Source: Deltaproteobacteria bacterium
Lineage (GTDB): Bacteria; Desulfobacterota; Binatia; UBA1149; CAYXZP01
NCBI GenBank assembly: GCA_046583365.1
Contig: JAYGCL010000079.1
Span: 17,508 to 81,507 of the forward strand
Length of the DNA stretch: 64,000 nucleotides
Direction of reading: 5' to 3'
The translations under genes were made by a program, and so were the position numbers. Numbering within the stretch: position 1 is the first letter of the stretch; each line of letters begins with the position of its first letter. Shown here one piece after another: positions 95 through 34,631 of the stretch. The notes under the pieces were generated by a model. That model did no database searches, was not told the origin of the DNA, and worked only from the letters and a program-made list of their open reading frames with translations.

Positions 95-2557
95 CTAGTC
101 TCCGTCGATGGTCTCACTGTCGGCCACGTGGGCCACCGAGACCACCGCTTCGGGGCCCTCGTCCTTCCCCAACCTCACCAGGCGTACTCCCTGCGTATTA
201 CGGCCTATCACCCTCACGTCGGTAGCCGATATGCGTATCAATTTACCGCCATCAGTGACCAGCATCATCTCCTCTTCCGCGCTGACTATCTGGATCACAC
301 CCACGACCGGACCGGTCTTCCTGGTAATCTTCATGGTGATCACACCCTTGGCACCACGATGAACCAGGCGGTAGGAGGATATTTTGCTGCGTTTGCCAAA
401 GCCGTTGGCCGAAACCGTAAGGAGGGTGGCGCCGGGATCCACTATTTCCATCGACACCACCGAGTCGTCCCTGGCCAGGGCTGCCCCACGCACGCCGGCC
501 GCCGTACGGCCAATCGACCTGACCTCTGATTCTGCGAAGCGTACAAGCATGCCGCCGCGGGTGGACAGGGCGATTTGCCGGCTCCCATCGGTAAGGCCCA
601 CGCCTATTAACTCGTCACCGGGGGCCAGGTTGATAGCCTTGATGCCGGCCAGACGCGGCCTGGAGTAGTCGGCCAGGGGAGTTTTCTTAACCGTCCCGGC
701 AGCGGTGGCAAAAACCACAAAGCGCTCCTCACCACCAAACTCACGCACCGGCAGGAAGGCCGACACCTTCTCCCCCGGCCCCAACGCCAGAAGATTTACT
801 ATCGCCTTGCCACGGGCGGTACGGCTGGCCTGGGGCAATTCGTGAACCTTTTTCCAGTAGACCCGACCGGTGGTCGTAAAGAACAGGATGTAGGCATGGG
901 TCGAGGCCACAAACATATCGGCCACGAAGTCTTCACCCCGCGTTTTCGCGCCGATCCGTCCCTTGCCGCCACGCTTTTGTGCACGGTACTGGGAAGTAGG
1001 CGTGCGCTTTACGTAACCTTCGTGGGAAAACGTCACGACCATCTCCTCCTCGACAATCATGTCTTCGACATTGATCTCGGAGGTCGCGTCAACGATCTCG
1101 GTACGGCGCTCATCACCGTACTGCTCGATGAGGTTCTGTGTGTCCTGGCCTATGATCTTGAGAATTTCTTTTTCACTGGACAGAATTTTTTTGAGTCGCT
1201 TGATCAGCGCACTGACTTCTTTGTGCTCGCCAAGGATCTTGTCGCGTTCCAGGCCCGTAAGACGCTGCAAACGCATGTCGAGAATGGCTTGGGCTTGAGC
1301 TTCGGAAAGTTTGAACTTCGTTGTCAGTTCGGTCTTGGCCGCGGGGCCGTCTTTGGCTTTACGGATCAGTTTGATAACCGCGTCGAGATTGTCGAGCGCT
1401 ATCTTCAACCCTTCGAGAATGTGCAGCCGGGCCTCAGCCTTGCGCAAGTCGAAGGCGGTGGCACGGGTAATAATCTCCTTGCGGTGCTCTATGAAGCACT
1501 CAAGCATGGCTTTGAGGTTGAGAAGGCGGGGCCTGCCGTCGACCACGGCAAGCATAATCACCCCAAAGGATTCCTGCATGGGGGTGTACTTGAAAAGGTT
1601 GTTGAGTACGACTTCCGCTATGGCATCGCGTTTGAGTTCTATAACGATACGCATACCGCGACGGTCGGATTCATCGCGCAGGTCGGAAATACCCTCGAGA
1701 CGTTTTGCATGCACCAGATTGGCGATCTTCTCTATCAGTCTCGATTTGTTAACCTTGTAGGGGATTTCACTAACGATGATGCGAGCGCGGTTGGTCTTTT
1801 CGTTTTCCTCGATCTCGGCACGCGCGCGCATTCGCAGGATGCCGCGCCCCTGCGTGTAGGCCTGGGCAATGGGCGCACGGCCATAGATAAACCCGCCGGT
1901 GGGGAAATCCGGACCCTTGACCAACTTCATCAACTGTTTGATCGTGGTGTCAGGATTTTCAATCAGCGCGAGCACTGCACGCCCTATTTCAGTCAGATTG
2001 TGCGGTGGTATGTTGGTGGCCATGCCCACCGCGATCCCCGACGAACCGTTGATGAGCAGGTTGGGCAAGCGGGCCGGCAACACCGACGGTTCAACCGTGG
2101 AATCATCGTAGTTGGGGGAAAAGTCTACCGTCTCCTTTTCGATATCGGCAAGCATTTCTCCCGTCACCCGGGACATACGGATTTCGGTGTAACGCATTGC
2201 AGCGGCAGGGTCGCCATCGACGGAACCGAAGTTTCCCTGTCCGTCGATAAGCATGTAGCGAAGCGAAAAATCCTGGGCCATGCGCACGAGGGTGTCGTAG
2301 ACAGCCTGATCGCCGTGGGGATGGTACTTACCTATGACATCGCCGACCACACGGGCGGACTTCTTGTACGTTTTGTTCCACTGGTTCCCGAGGTCCTCCA
2401 TCGCGTAAAGCACCCGACGGTGTACAGGTTTCAGCCCGTCACGAGCGTCGGGCAAAGCACGGCCCACGATGACGCTCATCGCGTAGTCCATGTAGGACGT
2501 ACGCATCTCGTCTTCGATGCTTACGGGGATATTTCTCTGGTCGGGCTCAGACGCCAC
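95..2557 (-). CDS. gyrA: DNA gyrase subunit A
   Basis: 820 aa ORF. The N-terminus [31 protein letters not shown]...YHPHGD is the canonical GyrA active-site region with the QRDR, and the C-terminal repeat domain is present. Confidence 0.95.
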
Positions 2558-2559
2558 CG

Positions 2560-5085
<2,526 letters not shown>

Positions 5086-5255
5086 TTACCGGACCTTTTA
5101 TGTGGAGCCTGCAACAGCCCCCGGGGGAGCCATAAAGCTATCAAATTGGAACCTGTAAGTAAAGCAGCTAATGCCACTAAAACCCTTTAAATAAAAGGAT
5201 TTCTAGCACATCCGGGACATATTCCCGGCGACCCGAGGAAGCAGGTTCAGAGGCC

Positions 5256-6371
5256 CTATATGCGCATGGGCATGACGACGTAACGGTACCCTGGATCGTC
5301 CCCTCTGATCACCCCCGGACTCAGTTCGTCGCCGAGACCGATCTCAACCCTGGAACCTTCTGGAAGCACAGCTAAAACATCGAGGAAATAGCGGGCGTTG
5401 AACCCCACCTCTATCTCATCACCCTCATATTCCACCCCGACGTCTTCCCTGGCCTCTCCAACATCGGGGTTATTTGCGGAAATATTCATAGAACCAGCGT
5501 GCAGGGTAAGCCTTATGCCACGGGCTCTTTCACTGGATAAAATGGAAACACGGCGAATGGTCTGCAGCAATTCATCGCGCCCAACCCCCACAAGATTGGG
5601 GGTCTCTTTGGGCACTACCTGCCGATAGTCGGGAAAGGTTCCCTCAACCAGACGCATACTGAAAGTGCACGCAGACAATGAGAATGTGGCTTCGTTGCCG
5701 GCCACAGTGATGGTCACCTTCTCGGTTTCCTCGCCCAGCAGTTTGGCAACCTCAGAAAGACCCTTGCGCGGCATTATAATCCCCTCGGCCGGGGCCTCTC
5801 CCTTGATCTTTCTCTCCACTATAGCCAAGCGGTGCCCATCGGTGGCTACAGTTCTGAGGATGCCCTTCTTTTCACCACGTACCATATACACCCCGGCCAG
5901 GTTTGAGCGGGTGTCGTCTGAGGACACCGCAAATATTGTCTTACGTATGAGTTCGGCCAGGTCTCCAGGGTCAATTTCCATGGTACTGGTCTTCTCCCCG
6001 TTGTCTGGAGGTGTGGGCATCCCGGGGTGCTCGGCTGGATCCATACCGGTCAGCTTGAAGTTAGAACGACCATAGGAGACCTCGAGCCACTGGTTTTCCA
6101 TGGTCTGGATGGAAACCTCGTCACTGCCGGCTTCCCTTACGATCTCAAATAGCTTTCTGGAGGATACCGATGCGCGTCCTTCTTCCTGTACCTGGGCTTC
6201 ACACTTCTGTTTGAGCCCTATTTCCAGATCAGTGGCAATTATTTCCAGTTCTCCGTTACGGGCCTCCAACAGAAGGTTGGCAAGAACCGGCATCGAGTGG
6301 CGTTTGTCGACCACTCCCTGGGTGTGGGTGAGGATCTGGAGCAAGTTATCTTTATTGACTGTTATTTTCAT
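5256..6371 (-). CDS. dnaN: DNA polymerase III beta sliding clamp
   Basis: 371 aa, three-domain clamp. N-terminus MKITVNKDNLLQIL...PVLANLLLEA. Sits in the classical position between dnaA and gyrB. Confidence 0.93.
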   Translation of the reverse strand: MKITVNKDNLLQILTHTQGVVDKRHSMPVLANLLLEARNGELEIIATDLEIGLKQKCEAQVQEEGRASVSSRKLFEIVREAGSDEVSIQTMENQWLEVSYGRSNFKLTGMDPAEHPGMPTPPDNGEKTSTMEIDPGDLAELIRKTIFAVSSDDTRSNLAGVYMVRGEKKGILRTVATDGHRLAIVERKIKGEAPAEGIIMPRKGLSEVAKLLGEETEKVTITVAGNEATFSLSACTFSMRLVEGTFPDYRQVVPKETPNLVGVGRDELLQTIRRVSILSSERARGIRLTLHAGSMNISANNPDVGEAREDVGVEYEGDEIEVGFNARYFLDVLAVLPEGSRVEIGLGDELSPGVIRGDDPGYRYVVMPMRI

Positions 6372-6584
6372 GGGTACTTCCTATCAGTAATGTAATATCT
6401 TTCTGTTGTTTTTTTAAAGTGCACACATATGTGGATATCTATCCTAAGTTGCTGGAAAACTTATTTTTAATGCTTGTTTTGACCTGTGTGTTGGGTGTTT
6501 GCTGGCCTGCATATCTTTGTAGCAGGGCTCAGGCAAGGGTCGTTTTGTCCTCCTGACGGGGGTTTTGTGCAGGACTTATCCACA
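6372..6584. promoter_or_regulatory. Candidate oriC segment in the dnaA-dnaN intergenic region. A ~100-bp AT-rich stretch (~6380-6480, candidate DUE) is flanked by DnaA boxes TGTGGATAT (6430-6438, 8/9) and TTATCCACA (6576-6584, perfect, overlapping the dnaA stop).
   Basis: Seen directly: the stretch is about 30% GC in a roughly 66% GC window, and the boxes match the consensus TTATCCACA. Confidence 0.5.
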
Positions 6585-7967
6585 GCCCAGGGTTCGAGTG
6601 ACAGTTTCTAATACATTGCGGTAGTGGGGGTCTGCCCGCAGGCGTTTGTTGACGGCCTGGCAGGCGTGAACTACGGTGGAATGGTCGCGACCACCAAGAA
6701 AAGACCCAATGGCTGGGAATGAAGCCTCTGAGTGGTTACGCATGATGTACATGGCCAACTGCCTGGCCTCGGCTACCTTGCGGGTCCGACGGCGGGCCTG
6801 CAGTTCTCCGGGTTTAAGGCCGAAGTGCATGCTTACCCTGTTCTCGATTTCCTCCAGCGTGGGGGTTTCTGGACACTTCGCGCCCATGCTGTTGAGAAGT
6901 TCGGACGCCATGGATGTCGTTATTGCACACCGGTTTAAGGAGGCGAAGGCGCTTATGCGGGTCAGCGCACCTTCAAGGTCACGGATGTTTGAATCCACCC
7001 TGGAAGCTATCAATGTGGCGACGTCCATGGGCAGGTCGATACCCTCGTCACGGGCCCGGCGTTCGAGAATTGCCATGCGGGTTTCCACGTCCGGGTATTG
7101 GATATCAGCGACCAGACCCCACCCAAATCGGTTACACAGCCGTTCTTCCACTCCACGGATCTCGTTTGGGAACTTATCCGAGGTGAGAATGATCTGGCGG
7201 CCCCCCTGGTAGAGGCTGTTGAAGATATGAAAGAGTTCTTCCTGGGTCCTCTCCCTGCCGGCTATGAACTGTACGTCGTCGAGGATTAGCACGTCTATCC
7301 TGCGCATACGGTTCTTAAATTCCGGGGCCTTGTTGCGGGCCATGGCGTCGATCATCTGGTTGGTGAAAGTATCGGCGGTCAGAGAAAGCACACGGGTGGC
7401 CGGCGCGGCCTGTAAGATGGCATTGCCGATGGCATTGGCCAGGTGGGTTTTCCCTAGGCCGACGCCGCCAAAAAGGAAGAAAGGGTTGTAGAGGGTGCCC
7501 GGTTGTCCGGCCACAGCCATGGCTGCGGCTTTTGCAAACTGGTTACTCGCACCGACAACAAAGCTGTCAAAGTCGTAACGTTCGACCAGGCCGGAGTTCG
7601 AGAGTTGTCTACGGTGGGCCTCCTTTTGAGTCTTTAACAGATGGTCTGATTCATTGGGCTGGCCCTGTCCGTCCTGGTCTGAGAACAATTCTCCTTGCCG
7701 CGAGTGGTCCTGCCAGTTAAAGCGCAGGCGCGGTGTGTTGCCGGCCATGGCCCGCCAGGCGGCGACCAGGGTCTCGGTGTAGTGTTGTTCCACCCAGGAG
7801 GCGAACATGCGGTTCGGAACGCCGATCTCAAGCACCCCATCGCTGATGGAAAGGGGTTTCAGGGGTTTTACCCAGTTGTCGAAATCGCTGCTGCCAAGCT
7901 GCTGTCGAAGCGGCTCAACTGCCTGCTCCCACACCAGTTTCAGAGATTTTCCGGATCCTCTATCCAC
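6576..7967 (-). CDS. dnaA: Chromosomal replication initiator DnaA
   Basis: 463 aa. AAA+ Walker A GGVGLGKTHL, sensor motifs and a C-terminal HTH DNA-binding domain (AIGSFLGGRDHSTVVHACQ). Confidence 0.95.
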   Translation of the reverse strand: MDRGSGKSLKLVWEQAVEPLRQQLGSSDFDNWVKPLKPLSISDGVLEIGVPNRMFASWVEQHYTETLVAAWRAMAGNTPRLRFNWQDHSRQGELFSDQDGQGQPNESDHLLKTQKEAHRRQLSNSGLVERYDFDSFVVGASNQFAKAAAMAVAGQPGTLYNPFFLFGGVGLGKTHLANAIGNAILQAAPATRVLSLTADTFTNQMIDAMARNKAPEFKNRMRRIDVLILDDVQFIAGRERTQEELFHIFNSLYQGGRQIILTSDKFPNEIRGVEERLCNRFGWGLVADIQYPDVETRMAILERRARDEGIDLPMDVATLIASRVDSNIRDLEGALTRISAFASLNRCAITTSMASELLNSMGAKCPETPTLEEIENRVSMHFGLKPGELQARRRTRKVAEARQLAMYIMRNHSEASFPAIGSFLGGRDHSTVVHACQAVNKRLRADPHYRNVLETVTRTLGCG

Positions 7968-28335: not shown

Positions 28336-29334
28336 TCAGCCGGCCGCCGGGGCCAGCTGGTTGAGACGGTCGATGAGGGTGCGAAGGCGGCCGTAGCTTT
28401 CCATGTCGAAGTGCGTCGTCAGGCGGGTGAGTCCGTCGAGGGCCGGCTCGTCGAACTCTTCCTTGAAAACCCCTCGCTGTCGTATCGGTTGTCCGCCGAG
28501 GATGTCCGAGAACTCTTCGGACAGGCTCGCCAACGCGGTCTCCCCCAACTTTTGCGTGGTACGCAGGACCAGGCGGCGGCGGATCACGCGGGAAGAGTGG
28601 TAGCAGCGGTAGAAGTCGGTGATGTGTTGCACGGCTGTGTCGACGTTGTCGGTAATGGAGTAAAGGTTGAGGTCGGTGGGACTGATAAGGCCCCGGCCGA
28701 GGAGGTGGCGACGCACGTAGTCGTCCCAGCCCTGCCAGTAGTCTCCGCCGGGGATGTCGAGAAGGATTATGGGCATCAGTTGGGCCTTGCCGGTTTGCAC
28801 CAGGGTCAGCGTTTCAAAGCCTTCATCGTGGGTGCCGAAACCGCCGGGCAGAAGTACCACGGCCGAGGACTCTTTTAAGAAGAACAGTTTGCGGGTGAAG
28901 AAGTATTTAAAGTCCACCAGCTTGCGGTCTCCGCGGATCACCGGGTTGGCCACGTTCTCAAAGGGCAGTTTTATATTGACCCCGAAGCTGCGCTTGCGCC
29001 CGGCTCCCTGTTGGCAGGCCTCCATGATGCCGGGCCCGGCTCCGGTGATAACCATGAAGCCGGCATCGGCGATGCGCCGGGAAAAGTCGCGGGCCAGGTC
29101 ATAGATCGGCGTGTCGGGGCGAGTACGGGCCGAACCGAAGGTCGTTACCTTGCGCACCGAGGCGTAGGGACGAAAGCAGGCCAGGCCCCGGCGGATCTCG
29201 TCCATGGCCGACTCGATGAGTTTGAGGTCGGCCACCGCGATGCCGTCGTCGGCTAGGTTGAGGCAGGTCTGTATGAGCTTGGCCAGTAAGGGGCCGGTTC
29301 TGGGGTCGTCGATTTTGTCGGAAGGCTTGCCCAT
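28336..29334 (-). CDS. LOG-family protein, long form (TIGR00730 Rossmann fold with N-terminal extension)
   Basis: VTTFGSARTRPDTPIYDLARDFSRRIADAGFMVITGAGPGIMEA...LLPGGFGTHDEGFETLTLVQTGK. Confidence 0.7.
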   Translation of the reverse strand: MGKPSDKIDDPRTGPLLAKLIQTCLNLADDGIAVADLKLIESAMDEIRRGLACFRPYASVRKVTTFGSARTRPDTPIYDLARDFSRRIADAGFMVITGAGPGIMEACQQGAGRKRSFGVNIKLPFENVANPVIRGDRKLVDFKYFFTRKLFFLKESSAVVLLPGGFGTHDEGFETLTLVQTGKAQLMPIILLDIPGGDYWQGWDDYVRRHLLGRGLISPTDLNLYSITDNVDTAVQHITDFYRCYHSSRVIRRRLVLRTTQKLGETALASLSEEFSDILGGQPIRQRGVFKEEFDEPALDGLTRLTTHFDMESYGRLRTLIDRLNQLAPAAG

Positions 29335-29387: not shown

Positions 29388-30392
29388 TCAGTGGCCGTCG
29401 CGGTGTTGATTGATTTCGAGCAGTCGAAATTTCGCGCTGGGGGCGATGCCGTCACGGTCGTAGACTATCGCCTCAACGCCTGCCGCCTGGGCCACGGCCA
29501 GCCCCTTGCGGCCCGTGATCACCAGGGCCGTGGACCAGGCCTCGGCCACCGCGGCCCGTGGGGCCATTGCGGTGGCAAGGCGGGGGGGAAGAACCGGGCT
29601 TAAATTGAAAGGGTCAATGATGGGCCCAACCTCGGCTGCCGGTCCCAAGGCCTTTGAGGTTGAAAGGGCCGCGTCGTGCAGTTCGACTGCACCCAGGAGT
29701 TGCCCCGGTTGGATGCCGCCGAGGGCCACCCGCCAGGCTTTGTCCCCTCTGGTCCGCCCGAGGGCCATGTGGCTGGAACCGCCGAAGTCGGCAAAGGCCC
29801 CGCGTGCGCCTTTGGATTTTAAAAAATCCACGATCTTGTCCAGGGCCAGGCCTTTGCCTATGCCACCGGCGTCCAGACGGACCCCGGGCAGGAGGGAGGC
29901 TGTGGGACGGGCTCCCTTTGCGCCTTCGAGGGTAAGGGCGGTTTGCAGACTCAAGGCTCCGCGCAAGGCCGCGCGTTCGAGCGTGTGCAGGTCGGCGGCG
30001 GTTGGAGTTTTGTGTTGCCGCCATAAATCCACGGCTGGCCCCAGGGCCGGGTCAAAGGTGGCCTTGGTGGCTTGGGCCAGGTCTTTCATTGTCGCCAGGG
30101 CCCAGGCCAGGTCCGGGCTTATGGCTACGGCTCCACTGCCGGCCTTGAGGTTGAGCCGTTCCAGCTCCCCTTCGGGCCGCCAGGTGGTAAGCACGTCGTC
30201 CCAGTGCCGGGCGATTGCAATACAAGCCTGGGCCAGACGGTCGGCTTCCTCGCCGGTGGCGGCCACCACTTCGACTTGCAAGACGGTGCCCATGACGGCC
30301 GCCGCCGCCTTTGCCGAGGCAGCGCCGGCGGCTGTGGCCGGGGCCGCCAGGACAAACAGAAGAAATACCAGCGCCGGCAGCGCTCGCGTCAA
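29388..30392 (-). CDS. apbE: FAD:protein FMN transferase
   Basis: Signal peptide, and an ApbE fold with LDAGGIGKGLALDK and a C-terminal Mg/FAD-binding region. Confidence 0.8.
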   Translation of the reverse strand: MTRALPALVFLLFVLAAPATAAGAASAKAAAAVMGTVLQVEVVAATGEEADRLAQACIAIARHWDDVLTTWRPEGELERLNLKAGSGAVAISPDLAWALATMKDLAQATKATFDPALGPAVDLWRQHKTPTAADLHTLERAALRGALSLQTALTLEGAKGARPTASLLPGVRLDAGGIGKGLALDKIVDFLKSKGARGAFADFGGSSHMALGRTRGDKAWRVALGGIQPGQLLGAVELHDAALSTSKALGPAAEVGPIIDPFNLSPVLPPRLATAMAPRAAVAEAWSTALVITGRKGLAVAQAAGVEAIVYDRDGIAPSAKFRLLEINQHRDGH

Positions 30393-30395
30393 CTC

Positions 30396-30917
30396 TCAGT
30401 CCCCGTTCTCGCCGTTACTGTTGGACGGGCCGTAAGCGCTTGGCAGTTCGAAGAGCAGGGCCCGGGCCACCAGTATTACCAGGATGGCAATCACGCCCTG
30501 CAGGAGCAGGAACATGGAGATTTTCATCCAGGCAAACCCCGGATGCACAAAGCGTACGCCCCAGCCGGCCAACTCGCCGCCCATGCCGGCGCCGAAGGCA
30601 AGGGCGATACCCCAGGCCTTGATACGCATGGAAATCGGTACAAACAGGGTCAGGTGGGTGAGCGTAAGCAGCAGGATGCCCATGGCAAAACTGTGGAAGT
30701 GGAGCATTTCCAGCAGCCCGACAAAGCTGCGGGGCTGCAGGTAGAGTTCTTCGTTGCCGAGGTAATAGTCGATTACCGAAGCCGGGTTGAGGCTCATCTT
30801 TGAAAAGTAAAGACCGATGTTGGTCAGCCACAACACCACCGTGTAGGCCAGGAAACACCACACGATCATTTTGAGTAGACGGTTTTTGGTCCACTCTCCG
30901 GTTACTACGAAACGCAT
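30396..30917 (-). CDS. 4-TM integral membrane protein with conserved His in TM helices, possibly DUF4405/cytochrome-b-like
   Basis: Four predicted TM helices. Histidines sit inside hydrophobic segments (EMLHFHSFAMG, LTLTHLTLF). Lies between the FMN-binding gene and apbE. Confidence 0.5.
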   Translation of the reverse strand: MRFVVTGEWTKNRLLKMIVWCFLAYTVVLWLTNIGLYFSKMSLNPASVIDYYLGNEELYLQPRSFVGLLEMLHFHSFAMGILLLTLTHLTLFVPISMRIKAWGIALAFGAGMGGELAGWGVRFVHPGFAWMKISMFLLLQGVIAILVILVARALLFELPSAYGPSNSNGENGD

Positions 30918-30929
30918 GACTATAACGGC

Positions 30930-31493
30930 CTAATCGTTGTCGGTTGGGGAGGCGGCGATGACTTCTTCATAAACCGCCAGCGCGCGGCCCACGGCGGAGA
31001 CCACGGCCCGCGAACTCAACGTCGAGCCGGTTACGGCGGCCAGGTCGCGGCCTATACGCAGGCCACTGCCCAGGCGCTTGCCCTTGAGTTGCTCCAACCA
31101 ACGCGCGCTCGGCAAGTATTCCAACGGCTCGTAGAAGGCAAGGACGTACACGGCACGTACCCGCCCGTCCGGGGAGAGGACGGTCAGGAAAGCCTCGGGG
31201 AGGGTGCGTACGATGTGGGTGTCGAGCAAGGCATAGCCGAGGGGTTCGTCTTGTTTGTAGCCGCTGTAGACTTTTATCAGGTCCGAATCGAGTCTGGTTC
31301 TGGCCGCGGCCTCGATTCGTTGGTGCTGGTCGGGACTAAGAAACAGCGTTGTCGTCTCGGTACGGGTGGCCTCGGGAAAGGCCAGGGCCGGCACCTCATC
31401 AAGTGAGTAGAAAACCGTTGCCGCGGCTTGGCCCGGGCAGGCCAGGCCGCAGGCAACAACCAGAGTGAGGCAAGGTTTCAGGAATGCTGGCAT
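30930..31493 (-). CDS. FMN-binding domain lipoprotein, likely an ApbE flavinylation substrate
   Basis: Lipobox LVVAC, and FMN_bind flavinylation motif GRDLAAVTGSTLSSRAV near the C-terminus. Confidence 0.65.
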   Translation of the reverse strand: MPAFLKPCLTLVVACGLACPGQAAATVFYSLDEVPALAFPEATRTETTTLFLSPDQHQRIEAAARTRLDSDLIKVYSGYKQDEPLGYALLDTHIVRTLPEAFLTVLSPDGRVRAVYVLAFYEPLEYLPSARWLEQLKGKRLGSGLRIGRDLAAVTGSTLSSRAVVSAVGRALAVYEEVIAASPTDND

Positions 31494-31507
31494 CCCAGTC
31501 CAGTGGC

Positions 31508-32797
31508 CTAGAAGATGTAGCCGGCTCCCAGACGGACCTCGTCGGAGGGGTCGGCGCCGCTTTTGTCGCTCCAGTCACGGTAGTCGAGTTTCACGACTAC
31601 ATTGGGAATCGGCTTGTAGGTCAGGCCCACTTCGACCACAGAGCGGTCTTTGTCCTTGTTGGCCGTGTAGCCGGTGGGTACAGTGGCCTGGCTGTCCAGC
31701 GTGGAATAGCGGACCCAGGGGGCCAGGTACTGGCCGCTGTCGGCGGCCAGCAGGGGCATGACGTCGTAGGCCGCCTCCAGGTACCAACCGGTCATCTTCT
31801 CGGCCACCGACTTGCCGGTGTCGTCTTTGTATTTGGCCCGGCTCAAAATGTCGGCGTCGTCCAGGTCTACCGATATGCCCAGGGCTCTGAGCTCCAGGCC
31901 TTTGGACTTCCACTGGATGTGGCCTTCAAACATTTCCATCTTTGCATCCGGGCTGCCCAGGGCGCTGCCATTGTCGGCATCCGTCAGGGCTACGTCCTGG
32001 CCCTGGTCGCCCAGGTAGGCCGAGCCGCCAAGGCTCAGACCGGGGACCGGGGTGTAGTCGATGCGGGTTACCCAGGACCAGTCGTTGGACTTTTCCTTGG
32101 AGCCTTTCTGCCGTCCGCTACGGAGGTTGCTCTCGCTGAACTCGCTGCCCAGCAGGCTTGTCACCAGGTAGGAGCGGTAGCTGAGGCCGGCAAAGGGTTG
32201 GCCGAACAGCCCCACACCGTTGGCCTGCCAGGTGGACGGGATTAACTGTCTCTCCACCGTCGGCCTCATATTGCCGTGGTAGAAAGGCGGTTCGTGCATC
32301 TCGTTGATGAAACCGACCGGAACCAGCATAAGGCCGGCGCGGGCGTTTACGGCTTCGTTAAACATAAAATCCAGGTAGGCGAATTCCACCGACACCGTGC
32401 CGTTGTCGTCGGTGGCGTGCTCGAATTCGATTTCGCTGTTCATGATGATCCAGTCGTTAAATTTGTAACCGAAGTACAGGACAAAACGGTAGAAGTCGGT
32501 TATGTCGTCTTCGCCGGCATCCTCGTAGTTGGCGTAGTTGAACTCGCCGTAGCCGCCTATCGAGAGGCCCCGCTCTTTTGAGTAGACCTTGGATGCGGCC
32601 GGACCCATCCCGTAGGCGCTCTTGAGTTCCCTGGTTTCCGGCAGGACCTGGGCTTCTTTGAGGGTTGCCAACTCTCCGGCCAACACGTCGATGCGGCGTT
32701 CAAGCTCGTCGATTTTGCCGGCGCCGCTGGCCGCCGCCGGCCCGGCCAGCAAGGCCACGAGCAGGGCCAGGGCCAGGGCTTTGTTGTAAGCGTTCAT
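31508..32797 (-). CDS. Outer-membrane beta-barrel porin with N-terminal coiled-coil segment
   Basis: Signal peptide and a heptad-like ELERRIDVLAGELATLKEAQ. Alternating amphipathic strands, and a C-terminal ...GAGYIF aromatic terminus typical of OM barrels. Confidence 0.55.
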   Translation of the reverse strand: MNAYNKALALALLVALLAGPAAASGAGKIDELERRIDVLAGELATLKEAQVLPETRELKSAYGMGPAASKVYSKERGLSIGGYGEFNYANYEDAGEDDITDFYRFVLYFGYKFNDWIIMNSEIEFEHATDDNGTVSVEFAYLDFMFNEAVNARAGLMLVPVGFINEMHEPPFYHGNMRPTVERQLIPSTWQANGVGLFGQPFAGLSYRSYLVTSLLGSEFSESNLRSGRQKGSKEKSNDWSWVTRIDYTPVPGLSLGGSAYLGDQGQDVALTDADNGSALGSPDAKMEMFEGHIQWKSKGLELRALGISVDLDDADILSRAKYKDDTGKSVAEKMTGWYLEAAYDVMPLLAADSGQYLAPWVRYSTLDSQATVPTGYTANKDKDRSVVEVGLTYKPIPNVVVKLDYRDWSDKSGADPSDEVRLGAGYIF

Positions 32798-32833
32798 GCG
32801 TAAGGTTCTCCGTGGGTAGTTCCAGTCTTAGTT

Positions 32834-32855
32834 GATTTTGATTATGATTATCAAT
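32834..32855. promoter_or_regulatory. Fur-box-like hexamer repeat GATTTTGATTATGATTATCAAT in the porin/exbB divergent promoter
   Basis: Seen in the sequence. It is the reverse-complement form of the (GATAAT)n arrangement of the Fur consensus GATAATGATAATCATTATC, inside an AT-rich island between two divergently transcribed operons. Confidence 0.35.
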
Positions 32856-32949
32856 TTCGGTTACTGAGTCAATAAGGCTCCTCCCTCCCCTCCTTCCAGC
32901 CCCCTGTCCGGCTTGCATTGGAGCCGTGGCACGGAGTTTATAGCCGCCT

Positions 32950-33630
32950 GTGGGAGTGACGGAATTTTTCGACCAGTCAGGCCCTCTGGGCCTCGTTTTA
33001 CTGCTGCTGTCGGTGCTGGCCCTGGCCATCATCATTACCAAGACCCGTCATTTCGTCCGCCTGAGAGTGAGAAATCTGGCCTTTGGCGACCAGGCGCTTG
33101 CAGCTCTGGCCGGCGGCGACATTGACGGGGCCCGGACCCTCATGGCCGCCAGTCCCAACCCGGTTGCCCGGGTGATGGAGGCACTGGTGGAACACTACGC
33201 CACCGACGGCCAGGCCCTGGCGGGGGGAGACGCCGAAGTTGAGCGTCGGGGCGAGGCCGAACTGCGAGAGATGGAAACCTGGCTGCGTCCCCTGGCCACG
33301 GTTGCCCACCTGAGCCCGTTGGTGGGATTGCTGGGTACCGTGTTCGGCATGATCCGGGCCTTCATGGCCATAGAGGCGGCCGGCTCCCGTGTTGACCCCG
33401 GCCTGCTCGCCGGCGGCATCTGGGAGGCCCTGCTGACGACGGCTTTCGGCCTGGCCATTGCTATTCCCTCTCTGGCCGCCTTTCACTTCTTTGAGGGTGA
33501 GATAGAGCGGGTCCGTGCCGCCATGAAAGATGTAACGGTAAGACTCATGGCTGCCTGTGGGGTCGAACCTGCAAGTTCGGCTGCTTTTGCGACCCTGCCG
33601 GCGGCCGAACGTGAAGACTATGCGGTTTGA
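32950..33630 (+). CDS. exbB: MotA/TolQ/ExbB proton channel protein
   Basis: 3-TM topology with the conserved LGLLGTVFGMIRAF...AFGLAIAIP. Confidence 0.8.
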   Translation: MGVTEFFDQSGPLGLVLLLLSVLALAIIITKTRHFVRLRVRNLAFGDQALAALAGGDIDGARTLMAASPNPVARVMEALVEHYATDGQALAGGDAEVERRGEAELREMETWLRPLATVAHLSPLVGLLGTVFGMIRAFMAIEAAGSRVDPGLLAGGIWEALLTTAFGLAIAIPSLAAFHFFEGEIERVRAAMKDVTVRLMAACGVEPASSAAFATLPAAEREDYAV

Positions 33631-34018
33631 ACGCCGCGCCACCCCGGTTGCGCGGCTCAGTCTGGCTCCCCTGATAGACGTTGTTTTTCTATTGCTGATT
33701 TTTTTCATGTTGACCAGCAGCTTTCTGGAAACCCAGGCCATCGAATTTGACTTGCCCGCCTCGGCCACTGCCGAGGCGACCCGGCCGACGGACCTGGTGG
33801 TCTCGGTCAGCCGTGGGGGGGGATTTGGAATTGACGGTCGGCTTCTGGAGACCCCGGCCTTCAAAAAAGAGTTGGCCGCGCGCCTCGGCAGCAATGGTCC
33901 TGGCGTGCTCGTTCTAAGCGACCGCGATGTCAGTGTTGAGAGGGTGGTTGCCGTCATGGATATGGTCCGTCAGGCCGGTGGCCGGGAGGTTTCCCTGGCC
34001 ACCCGTCCAGCCAACTGA
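33620..34018 (+). CDS. exbD: Biopolymer transport protein ExbD/TolR
   Basis: LAPLIDVVFLLLIFFM TM helix with the conserved Asp, plus a periplasmic domain. Start moved to MRFERR. Confidence 0.8.
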   Translation: MRFERRATPVARLSLAPLIDVVFLLLIFFMLTSSFLETQAIEFDLPASATAEATRPTDLVVSVSRGGGFGIDGRLLETPAFKKELAARLGSNGPGVLVLSDRDVSVERVVAVMDMVRQAGGREVSLATRPAN

Positions 34019-34022
34019 ACCC

Positions 34023-34631
34023 ATGGCGCCCCCACGGCCGAGCTTTGCCCTTTCCCTGGCCCTGGCTGTAGCCGTTCATGTGGGGGCCTTTGCCTTTCTC
34101 ACCCCCGGCCCGAGCGACCTGCCGGCCTACCGGCCCAGCCCTCCGGTCGTTTTGAGAGGGGAACTTTCCCCCCGCGATTCGGCACCACCCCACCCCGACC
34201 CTGACCCTGCCAGCCTCGGGCAAAGCCAACCGCAGCGGGGCCGCGCCCGTACTACGGCGGCACAGGTGGCGGTGGCCCCGATGGCGGCGGTCCGCGAGCA
34301 CGGCTCCGGCGATGAGGCCCTCATCGGCTACCAGTCTCTGCTGGCAGCCTGGTTGGAACGTTACAAACGCTACCCCGCAGCTGCCCTGCGCCGCCGTATA
34401 GAGGGCCGGGGTCTGTTGCAGGTGAGCATAGACGGCCGCGGTAACCTTCGCAGCAGCCGCCTGCTCGAGGGGCTGTCCTCGCCTATTCTTGACCAGGCCG
34501 TCCTCGACCTGGCCCGCCGTGCTTCCCCCTTTCCACCCCCGCCGGCCGGGGATGGTCATTACGAGTTTACGGTGCCGGTTGAGTTTCGACTGGGCCGCTC
34601 TTTGCCGTCCCCGCCGCTTTCGTCGCGGTAG
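34023..34631 (+). CDS. tonB: TonB-family energy transducer
   Basis: N-terminal TM helix, Pro-rich spacer, and a TonB_C domain (YPAAALRRRIEGRGLLQVSIDGRGNL...LDQAVLDLA). Start moved to MAPPRPSF. Confidence 0.6.
   Translation: MAPPRPSFALSLALAVAVHVGAFAFLTPGPSDLPAYRPSPPVVLRGELSPRDSAPPHPDPDPASLGQSQPQRGRARTTAAQVAVAPMAAVREHGSGDEALIGYQSLLAAWLERYKRYPAAALRRRIEGRGLLQVSIDGRGNLRSSRLLEGLSSPILDQAVLDLARRASPFPPPPAGDGHYEFTVPVEFRLGRSLPSPPLSSR

What the first reader, a model, noticed from the sequence alone, without database searches (positions are those of the whole stretch)
29388..32949. Fur-box-linked operon: coiled-coil porin, FMN-binding lipoprotein, His-rich 4-TM protein and ApbE, back-to-back with exbB-exbD-tonB
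Four minus-strand genes have 3-14 bp gaps: an OM beta-barrel porin with an N-terminal coiled coil, a lipoprotein with an FMN_bind flavinylation motif (TGSTLS), a 4-TM protein with intramembrane histidines, and a periplasmic ApbE FAD:protein FMN transferase. Their promoter is an AT-rich island with a Fur-box-like repeat, shared divergently with exbB-exbD-tonB. ApbE flavinylates FMN_bind proteins (established). The combination of a heme-b-like membrane partner, a dedicated porin and a TonB system suggests an iron-regulated extracytoplasmic flavin electron-transfer module, for example a ferric or siderophore reductase at the envelope. This architecture is not a characterised system.
Basis: partly seen in the sequence, partly recalled or inferred. 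Interest (0 to 1): 0.8.

Follow-up and report, generated by a model that had tools for sequence, protein, structure and literature searches.

The report
Fur-regulated periplasmic flavin iron-reductase cassette
A four-gene operon (outer-membrane porin, secreted FMN-carrying protein, small uncharacterised membrane protein, flavin-attaching enzyme ApbE) sits behind a conserved Fur box in several uncultured bacterial phyla, and most likely is an undescribed variant of the flavin-based systems that reduce iron in the periplasm for uptake.

Summary
Four minus-strand genes with 14, 12 and 3 bp gaps encode a 16-strand porin with an N-terminal coiled coil, an RnfG-like FMN_bind protein carrying TGST, a 173-aa 4-TM protein and a secreted ApbE. 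They lie behind the window's only strong Fur box, shared with divergent exbB-exbD-tonB.

Comparative evidence is strong. In 53 genome loci from about seven phyla, the FMN protein adjoins the 4-TM gene in 49/49 evaluable cases. ApbE is present in 45/49 and the porin is adjacent in 31/48. A delta-type Fur box lies at the operon's 5' end in about 35 of 47 loci. Fur genes, a cytochrome c::FTR1 permease, ferritin-like genes and a 4-TM::DtxR_C::FeoA fusion recur beside the cassette.

Three points need correcting. The FMN protein is a secreted soluble protein, not a family-wide lipoprotein. The TonB genes are neighbours only in close relatives. Haem binding by the 4-TM protein is unproven.

The 4-TM protein belongs to Pfam PF27139 (Aq_1264_TM), matches no known cytochrome or transporter family, and keeps E70, H73, H75 and H88 on TM2. 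Natural tandem fusions split these residues between the two halves, which points to a dimer-interface cofactor or metal site.

Best reading: an iron-starvation-induced reductive iron-uptake module, a new variant of a known kind.

The parts
31508..32797 (-). First gene of the operon: outer-membrane 16-strand porin (429 aa). It has a signal peptide, a short periplasmic coiled coil (residues 28-50, DNA 32648-32716) and a lumen-facing invariant Glu triad E122/E124/E126 plus H127.
   Evidence: ORF. Pfam gives only sub-threshold Porin_O_P (16.6 bits against 20.9). AF2 pLDDT 81 with 16 main strands. Foldseek to OmpM1/OmpC/OmpF at E about 1e-14. Invariant residues from the 36-sequence alignment A2. 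Heptad spacing.
30930..31493 (-). Secreted RnfG/NqrC-like FMN_bind protein (187 aa). The predicted flavinylation site is T158 in TGST (DNA 31020-31031).
   Evidence: Pfam FMN_bind at 23.2 bits (cut-off 22), matched by 28/36 homologues. The family profile hits RnfG chain 9eri_G at E 4.5e-11 with ITGSTLS aligned to ITGSTIT. G-[SA]-[TS] is kept in all homologues. The AxA signal-peptidase I site is conserved and there is no conserved Cys.
30396..30917 (-). 4-TM inner-membrane protein (173 aa) of Pfam PF27139 (Aq_1264_TM). The conserved TM2 signature is E70-x2-H73-x-H75-x12-H88 (DNA 30654-30710). Proposed role: membrane redox or cofactor partner of the FMN protein.
   Evidence: 1139 homologues, all carrying precomputed PF27139 and none with a functional name. 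No hit in the local Pfam copy or in PDB sequences. AF2 four-helix bundle, pLDDT 81.7. Conservation figures. Tandem-fusion complementarity. Motif translation.
29388..30392 (-). Secreted ApbE-family FAD:protein FMN transferase (334 aa), last gene of the cassette.
   Evidence: Pfam ApbE at 141.8 bits. The N-terminal hydrophobic signal sequence is visible. Conserved immediately downstream of the 4-TM gene in 41/49 loci and present elsewhere in the locus in 4 more.
32833..32859 (.). Fur box: the hexamer array GATTTT GATTAT GATTAT CAATTT. The best 15-mer is TGATTATGATTATCA at 32839-32853.
   Evidence: Searches show it is unique in the window. Orthologous sites lie at the operon's 5' end in about 35 of 47 related loci. 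The consensus matches the delta-proteobacterial FUR box of PMC545781.
32844..32872 (-). Sigma-70-like promoter of the porin operon (TTGACT, 17 nt spacer, AATCAT). The -10 hexamer lies inside the Fur box.
   Evidence: This is a consensus match only.
32950..33630 (+). exbB, divergent from the cassette. Its start is about 90-115 bp from the Fur box.
   Evidence: Pfam MotA_ExbB at 97 bits. Divergent exbB-exbD occurs in only 6/53 related loci.
33620..34018 (+). exbD. The likely start is the ATG at 33620; the mechanical ORF begins at 33557.
   Evidence: Pfam ExbD at 93 bits. Translation.
34023..34631 (+). tonB. The likely start is the ATG at 34023; the mechanical ORF begins at 33927.
   Evidence: Pfam TonB_C at 51.8 bits. 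Translation.

Best explanation
This is an iron-starvation-induced, Fur-repressed cassette for reductive handling of iron in the periplasm.

Proposed steps:
1. When iron is scarce, Fur leaves the box that overlaps the -10 element, and the four genes are transcribed.
2. The trimeric 16-strand porin, whose lumen carries conserved Glu and His residues, lets small iron species cross the outer membrane.
3. ApbE, in the periplasm, uses FAD to attach FMN covalently to Thr158 of the secreted RnfG-like protein.
4. The 4-TM protein (Aq_1264_TM family), probably as a homodimer, binds a redox cofactor at a TM2-TM2' interface site. That site is built from E70/H73 of one protomer and H75 of the other, with H88 near the cytoplasmic face. 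The cofactor could be haem b or a non-haem metal.
5. The 4-TM protein passes electrons from the membrane or cytoplasmic pool to the periplasmic FMN.
6. The reduced flavoprotein reduces Fe(III), free or chelated, to Fe(II).
7. Fe(II) enters the cell by an unlinked transporter. In a sister version of the operon it enters by a cytochrome c::FTR1 permease that replaces the porin.

The adjacent exbB-exbD-tonB genes share the Fur-controlled intergenic region but are not a conserved part of the module.

What is shown: the gene content, the conservation of the cassette and of the Fur box, the family assignments of ApbE, FMN_bind and the porin fold, and the conserved residues.

What is inferred: flavinylation, the direction of electron flow, the cofactor and oligomeric state of the 4-TM protein, the porin's substrate, and ferric reduction itself.
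For: Cassette conservation in 53 genome loci (Binatia, Myxococcota, Bdellovibrionota, Entotheonella, Wallbacteria, Krumholzibacteriia, Cloacimonadota):
- The FMN protein is adjacent in 49/49 evaluable loci.
- ApbE is present in 45/49.
- The porin is adjacent in 31/48.
- The same order is kept in more distant loci L055-L064, including tandem and fused forms.

Link to iron:
- The best Fur-box match of each 16-kb locus usually lies at the operon's 5' end. About 35 of 47 loci score at least 11/14, against 0.04 expected per zone.
- Fur-family genes scoring best as Fur proper sit next to the cassette in the Binatia subclade and in L057, L063 and L064.
- An 812-867 aa di-haem cytochrome c::FTR1 permease replaces the porin in 7 loci.
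- A ferritin-like gene follows ApbE in several loci.
- A 4-TM::Fe_dep_repr_C::FeoA fusion exists.
- FeoB or a TonB-dependent receptor lies nearby in some loci.

Flavinylation: the FMN protein aligns with RnfG across the flavinylated Thr, and the acceptor residue is conserved. TM4::ApbE fusions exist.

Membrane partner: the 4-TM protein is the only inner-membrane protein that always accompanies the FMN protein. Published flavinylated systems always pair the flavoprotein with a transmembrane electron-transfer protein (PMC8238504). FezC is a precedent for haem sites formed by homodimerisation (PMC10979944). The tandem 8-TM forms keep E70+H73 only in the N half and H75+H88 only in the C half, which fits one asymmetric interface site. 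Cytoplasmic-type domains fused to the C-terminus fix the topology as N-in/C-in, which places E70/H73/H75 near the periplasm.
Against: - No experiment exists on any member of this cassette.
- The 4-TM protein has no detectable relationship to PepSY-like, MsrQ-like, DUF4405 or b-type cytochrome families. Its fold matches only generic four-helix bundles. The cytochrome b matches are non-significant, with E 0.44 or higher.
- All conserved His lie on one helix. In the tandem forms H88 has no His partner, so a classical di-haem bis-His conduit is unlikely.
- The E70/H73/H75 set resembles a 2-His-1-carboxylate metal site. Fusion to a cytosolic metal-sensing domain is more typical of transporters.
- No cytoplasmic electron donor and no inner-membrane iron transporter is encoded in the window's cassette.
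- Fur-like boxes were not found in the Bdellovibrionota and Krumholzibacteriia loci.
- A homodimer could not be modelled with the tools available.
Confidence: 0.5

Rival explanations
1. The 4-TM protein is itself the inner-membrane Fe(II) (or other divalent metal) permease. E70/H73 of one protomer and H75 of the other form a 2-His-1-carboxylate entry site, and H88 is a second station toward the cytoplasm. The porin, flavoprotein and permease would then form a complete uptake route, with the flavoprotein reduced by an unlinked donor.
For: - The conserved Glu and His residues line one helix from the periplasmic to the cytoplasmic side.
- E70 is as conserved as the His residues and is retained together with H73 in the tandem N halves.
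- A natural fusion to the DtxR metal-binding domain plus a FeoA domain, and another to PilZ, resemble allosteric control of transporters.
- No other inner-membrane iron transporter is encoded in most cassettes.
Against: - It leaves the flavoprotein with no electron source in a cassette that is otherwise self-contained.
- In 7 loci the trio sits next to an FTR1 permease, which would be redundant.
- There is no similarity to any known metal transporter family.
- All known ApbE-dependent systems include a transmembrane electron carrier (PMC8238504).
Confidence: 0.2
2. Electrons flow the other way. The module is an electron sink for oxidase-dependent Fe(II) uptake, in the way FtrD or cupredoxin are proposed to serve FTR1 systems. 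Electrons taken from periplasmic Fe(II) would pass through FMN and the 4-TM protein to the quinone pool.
For: - The cassette is associated with cytochrome c::FTR1 fusions.
- P19/FTR1 clusters containing FMN-binding genes are documented (PMC8238504, section read).
- The acidic porin lumen suggests a preference for cations such as Fe(II).
Against: - By general knowledge, flavin midpoint potentials are usually far below those of Fe(III)/Fe(II) at neutral pH and of c-type cytochromes, so the transfer would be uphill.
- Most cassettes, including the window's, have no FTR1 partner.
Confidence: 0.1
3. The 4-TM protein is an accessory of ApbE rather than a redox partner. It could be a small dimeric exporter that supplies FAD to the periplasm for flavinylation, or a membrane anchor for ApbE.
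For: - The natural fusions are to ApbE, not to the flavoprotein.
- Flavin transporters do co-occur with apbE in other clusters (PMC10979944).
- Four TM helices plus a membrane-embedded acidic residue recall small dimeric exporters. This is a resemblance recalled from general knowledge and was not tested.
Against: - The 4-TM gene is adjacent to the flavoprotein gene in 49/49 loci, even where ApbE is encoded elsewhere or is not seen (L031-34, L039, L044, L047).
- Conserved intramembrane His triplets are not a known feature of flavin exporters.
- No similarity to any exporter family was found.
Confidence: 0.08
4. The cassette is not about iron. The palindrome is bound by another Fur-family regulator (PerR, Zur or Mur), and the module repairs or detoxifies something in the periplasm, as MsrPQ does.
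For: Fur-family boxes resemble each other. The adjacent regulators score below the NCBIfam equivalog cut-offs, and PerR models also match them.
Against: - The regulators score highest against three Fur-proper models: 121, 108 and 107 bits, against 89 for PerR and 46 for Zur.
- The box matches the delta-proteobacterial FUR consensus found upstream of feoAB and fur genes.
- The recurring neighbours are FTR1, ferritin-like, FeoB, DtxR_C/FeoA and a TonB-dependent receptor.
Confidence: 0.05

Closest known systems
PepSY-like / DUF2271 / DUF4198 / ApbE clusters (Meheust et al. 2021, PMC8238504; FoxB-type di-haem siderophore reductases)
   Same: They are Fur-repressed Gram-negative clusters. They combine a periplasmic ApbE-flavinylated protein, ApbE and a small transmembrane electron carrier, and are proposed to reduce iron for assimilation. 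Some lie next to TonB-related genes.
   Different: - The flavinylated protein here is an RnfG-like FMN_bind domain, not DUF2271.
- The membrane protein is PF27139 with four TM helices and its conserved His all on one helix, not PepSY_TM. No Pfam match was found even at E up to 10.
- A dedicated porin heads the operon, and there is no DUF4198.
DUF4405 cytochromes and ferrosome FezC (Huang et al. 2024, PMC10979944)
   Same: They are membrane proteins found by co-localisation with apbE and recognised by conserved intramembrane His residues. FezC builds its haem sites by homodimerisation. They are linked to iron redox cycling.
   Different: - No sequence relationship was detected.
- DUF4405 has six TM helices and four central His, whereas this family has four TM helices and E-x2-H-x-H-x12-H on a single helix.
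- Haem binding has been shown for DUF4405 and FezC but is untested here.
RnfG / NqrC subunits of Rnf and Na+-NQR
   Same: The FMN_bind fold is shared, and the flavinylation motif aligns residue for residue (ITGSTLS against ITGSTIT of 9eri_G). Both are matured by ApbE.
   Different: - There are no Rnf or Nqr partner subunits.
- The protein is secreted with a cleavable signal peptide rather than anchored in a six-subunit complex.
- It scores far below the RnfG NCBIfam cut-offs (19 bits against 102).
Fur-regulated hypothetical porin 'psp' of Geobacter metallireducens and Desulfuromonas (Rodionov et al. 2004, PMC545781)
   Same: It is a predicted porin weakly similar to phosphate-selective porin PF07396, preceded by delta-type FUR boxes. 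Its homologues are reported only in Aquifex and uncultured bacteria, and it was proposed to carry ferrous iron. The 4-TM family here is named after the Aquifex gene aq_1264.
   Different: I could not compare the sequences directly, so identity of the two families is a lead and not a test. That paper did not report the linked FMN_bind, 4-TM and ApbE genes.
P19/FTR1 (FtrABCD-type) iron uptake clusters with FMN-binding genes (PMC8238504)
   Same: An FMN-binding flavinylated protein is genomically linked to an FTR1 permease. The same link appears in the sister version of this cassette (7 loci).
   Different: The window's own operon has no P19 and no FTR1. Where FTR1 occurs here it is fused to a di-haem cytochrome c.
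Listeria flavin-based extracellular electron transfer (PplA, FmnB, Ndh2, EetA/B)
   Same: A secreted FMN_bind protein is flavinylated by an ApbE homologue and can reduce ferric iron outside the cytoplasm.
   Different: The Listeria system is Gram-positive, respiratory rather than Fur-controlled, and uses a dedicated NADH dehydrogenase and a quinone. It has no porin and no PF27139 protein. This comparison rests on general knowledge and PMC8238504.

Membership tests
ApbE-flavinylated FMN_bind proteins (NqrC/RnfG/PplA type) | FMN_bind domain (PF04205) | tested here: met
   23.2 bits against a cut-off of 22. 28/36 homologues match, best E 4e-10. The family profile hits RnfG 9eri_G at E 4.5e-11.
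ApbE-flavinylated FMN_bind proteins (NqrC/RnfG/PplA type) | Acceptor Thr/Ser in a [S/T]G[A/S][S/T]-type motif, conserved and aligned with a known flavinylated Thr | tested here: met
   TGST at residues 155-158. G-[SA]-[TS]-[LM]-[ST] is present in every homologue. The motif aligns with ITGSTIT of RnfG. The first position of the motif is variable (T/A/S/V/L/M).
ApbE-flavinylated FMN_bind proteins (NqrC/RnfG/PplA type) | Extracytosolic location | tested here: met
   A hydrophobic signal peptide ending in a conserved AxA precedes a conserved mature N-terminus. This is by sequence inspection only; no signal-peptide predictor was available.
ApbE-flavinylated FMN_bind proteins (NqrC/RnfG/PplA type) | Covalently bound FMN | not testable with these tools
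   Needs co-expression with ApbE and a UV-fluorescence gel or mass spectrometry.
ApbE FAD:protein FMN transferase | ApbE domain (PF02424) over its full length | tested here: met
   141.8 bits, profile positions 1-265 of 266. The E. coli-type equivalog NF007774 is not reached (60 bits against 498), so this is family-level membership only.
Fur regulon | Fur-box match in the promoter, above chance | tested here: met
   Two overlapping 16/19 matches, unique in the 64 kb. One 14/15 match to TGAWAATNATTWTCA. With up to three mismatches there are 8 hits against 1.6 expected, and 0/100 shuffles reach 8. The box overlaps the -10 hexamer.
Fur regulon | Site conserved upstream of orthologous operons | tested here: met
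   A score of at least 11/14 at the operon's 5' end in about 35 of 47 loci, usually the best site in the 16-kb locus. Chance expectation is 0.04 per 450-bp zone. No such site was found in the Bdellovibrionota and Krumholzibacteriia loci.
Fur regulon | Fur binding and iron-dependent repression | not testable with these tools
   Needs EMSA or footprinting and expression data.
[quoted passage not shown] | Sequence membership in PF03929/PF16357, PF01794 or PF14358 | tested here: not met
   No Pfam hit for the window protein or for seven distant homologues at E up to 10, apart from noise. No PDB sequence hit.
[quoted passage not shown] | Pairs of conserved intramembrane His placed to ligate haem b | tested here: inconclusive
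   H73, H75 and H88 are conserved (87-93%) but all lie on TM2. The tandem forms keep H73 in one half and H75+H88 in the other. At most one bis-His site across a dimer interface is possible. No multimer model could be made.
[quoted passage not shown] | Co-localisation with apbE and a flavinylation substrate | tested here: met
   FMN protein adjacent in 49/49 loci and ApbE in 45/49. TM4::ApbE fusions exist.
[quoted passage not shown] | Haem binding | not testable with these tools
   Needs purification and spectroscopy.
Pfam PF27139 (Aq_1264_TM) | Match to the family model | tested here: met
   The precomputed PF27139 assignment is carried by every close and distant homologue returned. The model is absent from the local Pfam copy, so the window protein itself was not scored directly; it is 99% identical to P0001.
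Phosphate-selective porin O/P (PF07396) and 16-strand general porins | Match to the PF07396 model | tested here: not met
   16.6 bits against a cut-off of 20.9.
Phosphate-selective porin O/P (PF07396) and 16-strand general porins | 16-strand beta-barrel porin fold | tested here: met
   The AF2 model has 16 main strands. Foldseek probability is 1.00 to OmpM1, OmpC and OmpF, with TM-score 0.65-0.73 normalised to the target.
TonB-dependent transporter | Plug domain plus 22-strand barrel | tested here: not met
   No Plug or TonB_dep_Rec hit and a 16-strand barrel. No TonB-box-like motif was seen on reading the N-terminal sequence. The porin is therefore not an evident TonB client.
ExbB-ExbD-TonB energiser | MotA_ExbB, ExbD and TonB_C domains in three consecutive genes | tested here: met
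   97, 93 and 52 bits respectively.

The most novel reading that the evidence does not exclude
PF27139 (Aq_1264_TM) would define a new, minimal class of transmembrane redox protein. It would be a 4-TM homodimer carrying a cofactor at an asymmetric TM2-TM2' interface site: E70/H73 from one protomer, H75 from the other, and H88 toward the cytoplasm. It would feed electrons to a secreted RnfG-like flavoprotein. Together with a dedicated cation-selective porin, this would be a self-contained, siderophore-independent, Fur-controlled reductive iron-uptake pathway. It would be widespread in phyla that are almost entirely uncultured (Binatota, Dadabacteria, Tectomicrobia, Wallbacteria, Bdellovibrionota and others).
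Probability: 0.35. Interest if true: 0.8.

Novelty: new variant of a known kind. Interest (0 to 1): 0.64.

Why it matters
Flavinylated extracytosolic electron-transfer systems are a recognised route to iron reduction and assimilation. Every described system relies on one of a handful of membrane electron carriers: NapH-like, MsrQ-like, PepSY-like, DsbD, Nqr/Rnf-like and DUF4405.

This cassette uses a different membrane protein family that has never been studied. It has more than 1,100 homologues, nearly all from uncultured bacteria, and it is paired with its own porin and placed under Fur control.

If the model is right, it adds a new carrier class. It gives a function to a Pfam family that has only a placeholder name. 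It also explains a Fur-regulated porin that was predicted in 2004 and never followed up.

It would further suggest how abundant soil and marine lineages such as Binatia obtain iron without siderophore receptors. The tandem-fusion pattern supplies a ready mutagenesis map (E70, H73, H75, H88).

Tried and rejected
- Pfam and NCBIfam scans of the 4-TM protein and seven distant homologues, at E up to 10, found nothing.
- A profile search of PDB sequences found nothing.
- The AlphaFold-database fold library was not available. Model coordinates are not exposed, so I could not check which way the His side chains point and could not model a homodimer.
- I looked for cultured hosts through cluster names and a profile search with distant members. 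Every hit is from a MAG or metagenome. A literature search for aq_1264 found nothing.
- I considered whether the porin is the flavinylated outer-membrane protein DUF3570. There is no Pfam hit and, on reading the sequence, no [S/T]GA[S/T] motif, so I rejected this.
- I considered the porin as a TonB-dependent transporter and rejected it, because it has no Plug domain and 16 strands.
- I considered a porin-flavoprotein complex analogous to MtrAB. I judged it unlikely, because a 16-strand barrel is too narrow to hold a 17-kDa domain. This is inference only.
- The lipoprotein label for the FMN protein is rejected at family level.
- My crude GC3-based gene caller mis-called the exbB-tonB region as antisense ORFs. 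Pfam supports the plus-strand genes.

Full report
**What is in the window.** Four ORFs lie head to tail on the minus strand. They are a 429-aa protein (31508-32797), a 187-aa protein (30930-31493), a 173-aa protein (30396-30917) and a 334-aa protein (29388-30392). The gaps between them are 14, 12 and 3 bp.

Pfam assigns the last protein to ApbE (141.8 bits) and the second to FMN_bind (23.2 bits, just above the cut-off of 22). The first protein has only sub-threshold Porin_O_P and inverse-autotransporter hits, and the third has none.

On the plus strand, 152 bp away, lie exbB (MotA_ExbB, 97 bits), exbD (93 bits) and tonB (TonB_C, 52 bits). Their likely true starts are 32950, 33620 and 34023.

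The flanking genes are housekeeping: a LOG-family protein, a HAD hydrolase and glycerol kinase on one side, and glycolate-oxidase-like GlcDEF genes on the other. The window begins with gyrA-gyrB-dnaN-dnaA, so it lies near the chromosomal origin. An identical porin is on record from a MAG labelled Deltaproteobacteria bacterium.

**The Fur box.** The intergenic region contains GATTTT GATTAT GATTAT CAATTT. It gives two overlapping 16/19 matches to the E. coli Fur consensus, and these are the only matches of 14 or more in the 64 kb.

TGATTATGATTATCA at 32839-32853 is the only match with at most one mismatch to TGAWAATNATTWTCA. With up to three mismatches the window has 8 hits against 1.6 expected, and none of 100 shuffles reaches 8. 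The box contains the -10 hexamer of the only sigma-70-like site for the porin operon, which is the classical arrangement for repression.

**The cassette is conserved across phyla.** A scan of one genome per species found 53 loci that encode a relative of the 173-aa protein. All are MAGs, from Binatia, Myxococcota or 'Deltaproteobacteria', Bdellovibrionota, Entotheonella, Wallbacteria, Krumholzibacteriia and Cloacimonadota.

I searched these loci with tblastn using the window's proteins:
- The FMN protein lies immediately upstream of the 4-TM gene in 49/49 evaluable loci.
- ApbE lies immediately downstream in 41/49, and elsewhere in the locus (as the first gene) in 4 more.
- The porin lies immediately upstream in 31/48 and elsewhere in the locus in 4.
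- exbB-exbD is divergent in only the six closest relatives.

More distant members keep the same order. These include a marine Thermodesulfobacteriota MAG, a Dadabacteria MAG, tandem 8-TM forms and a TM4::ApbE fusion.

**Iron control holds up under footprinting.** I scanned each locus for the delta-proteobacterial FUR palindrome TGAAAATNATTTTCA, which is the consensus published in PMC545781. A site matching at least 11 of 14 positions lies at the 5' end of the operon in about 35 of 47 evaluable loci. It is usually the best site in the whole 16 kb. The background rate predicts 0.04 such sites per 450-bp zone. The Bdellovibrionota and Krumholzibacteriia loci lack a recognisable site.

Independent iron links recur beside the cassette:
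- A Fur-family gene lies directly upstream in a Binatia subclade and in three unrelated loci. It scores best against three Fur-proper models (121, 108 and 107 bits), ahead of PerR (89 bits).
- In seven loci the porin is replaced by an 812-867 aa protein. That protein carries two CxxCH cytochrome c domains fused to an FTR1/EfeU permease with REGFE and REGVE motifs.
- A ferritin-like gene follows ApbE in several loci.
- One homologue of the 4-TM protein is fused at its C-terminus to the DtxR metal-binding/dimerisation domain and a FeoA domain, and is followed by a Fur gene.
- FeoB or a TonB-dependent receptor lies nearby in other loci.

**The flavoprotein.** A profile of 36 homologues matches RnfG of a solved Rnf complex (9eri_G, E 4.5e-11). 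ITGSTLS aligns to ITGSTIT, which is the Thr-containing flavinylation motif. The G-[SA]-[TS] core is present in every homologue, and 28/36 homologues pass Pfam FMN_bind.

The signal peptides end in AxA just before a conserved (T/K)VF(Y/H) N-terminus, and no Cys is conserved there. The family is therefore secreted and soluble, and the two Cys residues in the window's signal peptide are incidental.

**The porin.** AlphaFold2 with a 36-sequence alignment gives pLDDT 81. The model has a signal helix, a helix at residues 26-50, a disordered linker and 16 main strands. The helix has hydrophobic residues at positions 29, 32, 36, 39, 43 and 46, which is a heptad a/d pattern.

Foldseek places the model with trimeric 16-strand porins. 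The top match is Veillonella OmpM1, followed by OmpC and OmpF. From general knowledge, OmpM1 also carries a periplasmic coiled-coil stalk.

The invariant residues include E122, E124 and E126, which alternate with hydrophobic residues on strand 117-127 and so face the lumen. H127 is also invariant, as are N165, H168, E169, R178 and E182 in the long loop 159-190. I infer a cation- or metal-selective pore.

Rodionov et al. described a Fur-regulated hypothetical porin 'psp' that is weakly similar to PF07396. They reported homologues only in Aquifex and uncultured bacteria, and proposed ferrous iron transport. This is very probably the same family, but I could not compare the sequences directly.

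**The 4-TM protein.** It has 1139 homologues at E up to 1e-3 in the 90% clusters and 333 in the 50% representatives. All carry the precomputed Pfam assignment PF27139, 'Aq_1264_TM'. None has a functional name, and all named sources are MAGs. No paper mentions aq_1264.

Across 60 diverse cluster representatives, the conserved polar residues are E70 (90%), H73 (87%), H75 (92%) and H88 (93%), all on TM2. H125 is kept in only 32%.

C-terminal fusions to DtxR_C/FeoA and PilZ, which are cytoplasmic domain types, imply an N-in/C-in topology. So does the fusion to ApbE through an extra hydrophobic segment. This topology puts E70, H73 and H75 near the periplasmic face and H88 near the cytoplasmic face.

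The most informative pattern comes from 13 natural tandem (8-TM) proteins:
- The N half keeps H73 in 13/13 and E/D70 in 12/13. It never keeps H75 or H88.
- The C half keeps H75 and H88 in 13/13 each. It keeps H73 in only 2/13.

This complementary loss is what one expects if the single-domain protein works as a homodimer. The essential site would be asymmetric and lie at the interface, with E70/H73 from one protomer and H75 from the other. H88 would be needed only once.

**How it most likely works.** Every characterised or predicted ApbE-dependent system couples the extracytosolic flavoprotein to a transmembrane electron carrier (PMC8238504). Several such systems are Fur-regulated and implicated in iron reduction.

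Here the only inner-membrane protein that always accompanies the flavoprotein is the PF27139 protein. The trio of FMN protein, 4-TM protein and ApbE behaves as a module that pairs either with a porin or with a cytochrome c::FTR1 permease.

I therefore propose that the 4-TM dimer is the electron-input component. Its cofactor would be haem b ligated by H73 and H75', or a non-haem metal held by E70, H73 and H75'. H88 might serve a quinol or second-cofactor site. FezC gives a precedent for haem sites formed by homodimerisation. The reduced flavoprotein would then reduce Fe(III) that has entered through the porin.

I put this at about 0.5. The more general statement, that this is a Fur-controlled, flavinylation-dependent iron-acquisition cassette, I would put near 0.85.

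The main rival, at about 0.2, is that the 4-TM protein is itself an Fe(II) permease. The Glu/His ladder and the fusion to a metal-sensing domain favour this rival. The missing electron source and the co-occurrence with FTR1 argue against it.

Weaker rivals are reversed electron flow (an electron sink for oxidase-dependent uptake), an ApbE accessory or FAD exporter, and control by a Fur paralogue.

**TonB.** The exbB-exbD-tonB genes share the Fur-controlled intergenic region. That fits the common iron regulation of these genes, as known in other bacteria. They are linked to the cassette only in the closest relatives (6/53 loci). The porin is not a TonB-dependent transporter. I treat these genes as co-regulated neighbours and not as part of the module.

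**Novelty.** The kind of system is known: a flavinylated periplasmic redox system for iron assimilation. The porin had probably been predicted as Fur-regulated. The combination is new. So is the use of PF27139 as the membrane partner. Neither appears among the five classes of PMC8238504 nor with DUF4405 in PMC10979944, which has no mention of a porin. I rate it a new variant of a known kind.

Noticed in passing
window 95-7967 (minus strand): gyrA, gyrB, dnaN and dnaA lie in a row (Pfam), so the window sits at the chromosomal replication origin region. oriC itself was not looked for.
   Followed up: partly
proteins P0151, P0162, P0169, P0173, P0178, P0185, P0190, P0198, P0202, P0244, P0246, P0261, P0265; loci L058:2075-2995 and L059:883-1878: These are natural tandem duplications (8 TM) of the Aq_1264_TM domain with complementary loss of conserved residues. 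The N half keeps E70+H73 and the C half keeps H75+H88. They lie in the same FMN_bind/ApbE context.
   Followed up: yes
L057:1477-2730 (protein P0156); L061:138-947 (P0144): The 4-TM domain is fused at its C-terminus to the DtxR-type metal-binding/dimerisation domain plus a FeoA domain, without the DNA-binding HTH, and is followed by a Fur gene. Another member is fused to PilZ. These suggest post-translational control by cytosolic metal or c-di-GMP.
   Followed up: partly
L007:4819-7422, L011:1073-3595 and the equivalents in L006, L008, L014, L027, L054: An 812-867 aa fusion of two cytochrome c domains with an FTR1/EfeU iron permease heads the operon in place of the porin. It has a Fur gene and a Fur box just upstream. 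I did not find this fusion discussed in the papers I read.
   Followed up: partly
L019, L025, L029 (just after ApbE); L032:15959-16477: A ferritin-like (Dps/bacterioferritin-like) gene recurs downstream of the cassette.
   Followed up: partly
window 28336-29334 (minus strand): A LOG/TIGR00730-family gene lies 53 bp downstream of apbE on the same strand. It is conserved there only in 8 close relatives, at variable distance. Co-transcription with the cassette is possible but was not examined.
   Followed up: no
L063:1-3718: In one distant locus, a TonB-dependent receptor, a Fur gene and a second, divergent porin that does pass Pfam Porin_O_P lie directly upstream of the porin / FMN protein / 4-TM genes.
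   Followed up: no
L002:6544-7326 and L004:6469-6879: Small conserved ORFs with no Pfam match lie between the Fur gene and the cassette in some Binatia loci: a 260-aa protein, and a 115-207 aa family that precedes the Fur gene. Their function is unknown.
   Followed up: no
window 32998-34559 (minus strand): Long antisense ORFs of 319 and 201 aa with high GC3 overlap exbB-exbD-tonB and fooled a simple GC3-based gene caller. Pfam supports only the plus-strand genes, so this is a caution for automated annotation of this high-GC genome.
   Followed up: yes
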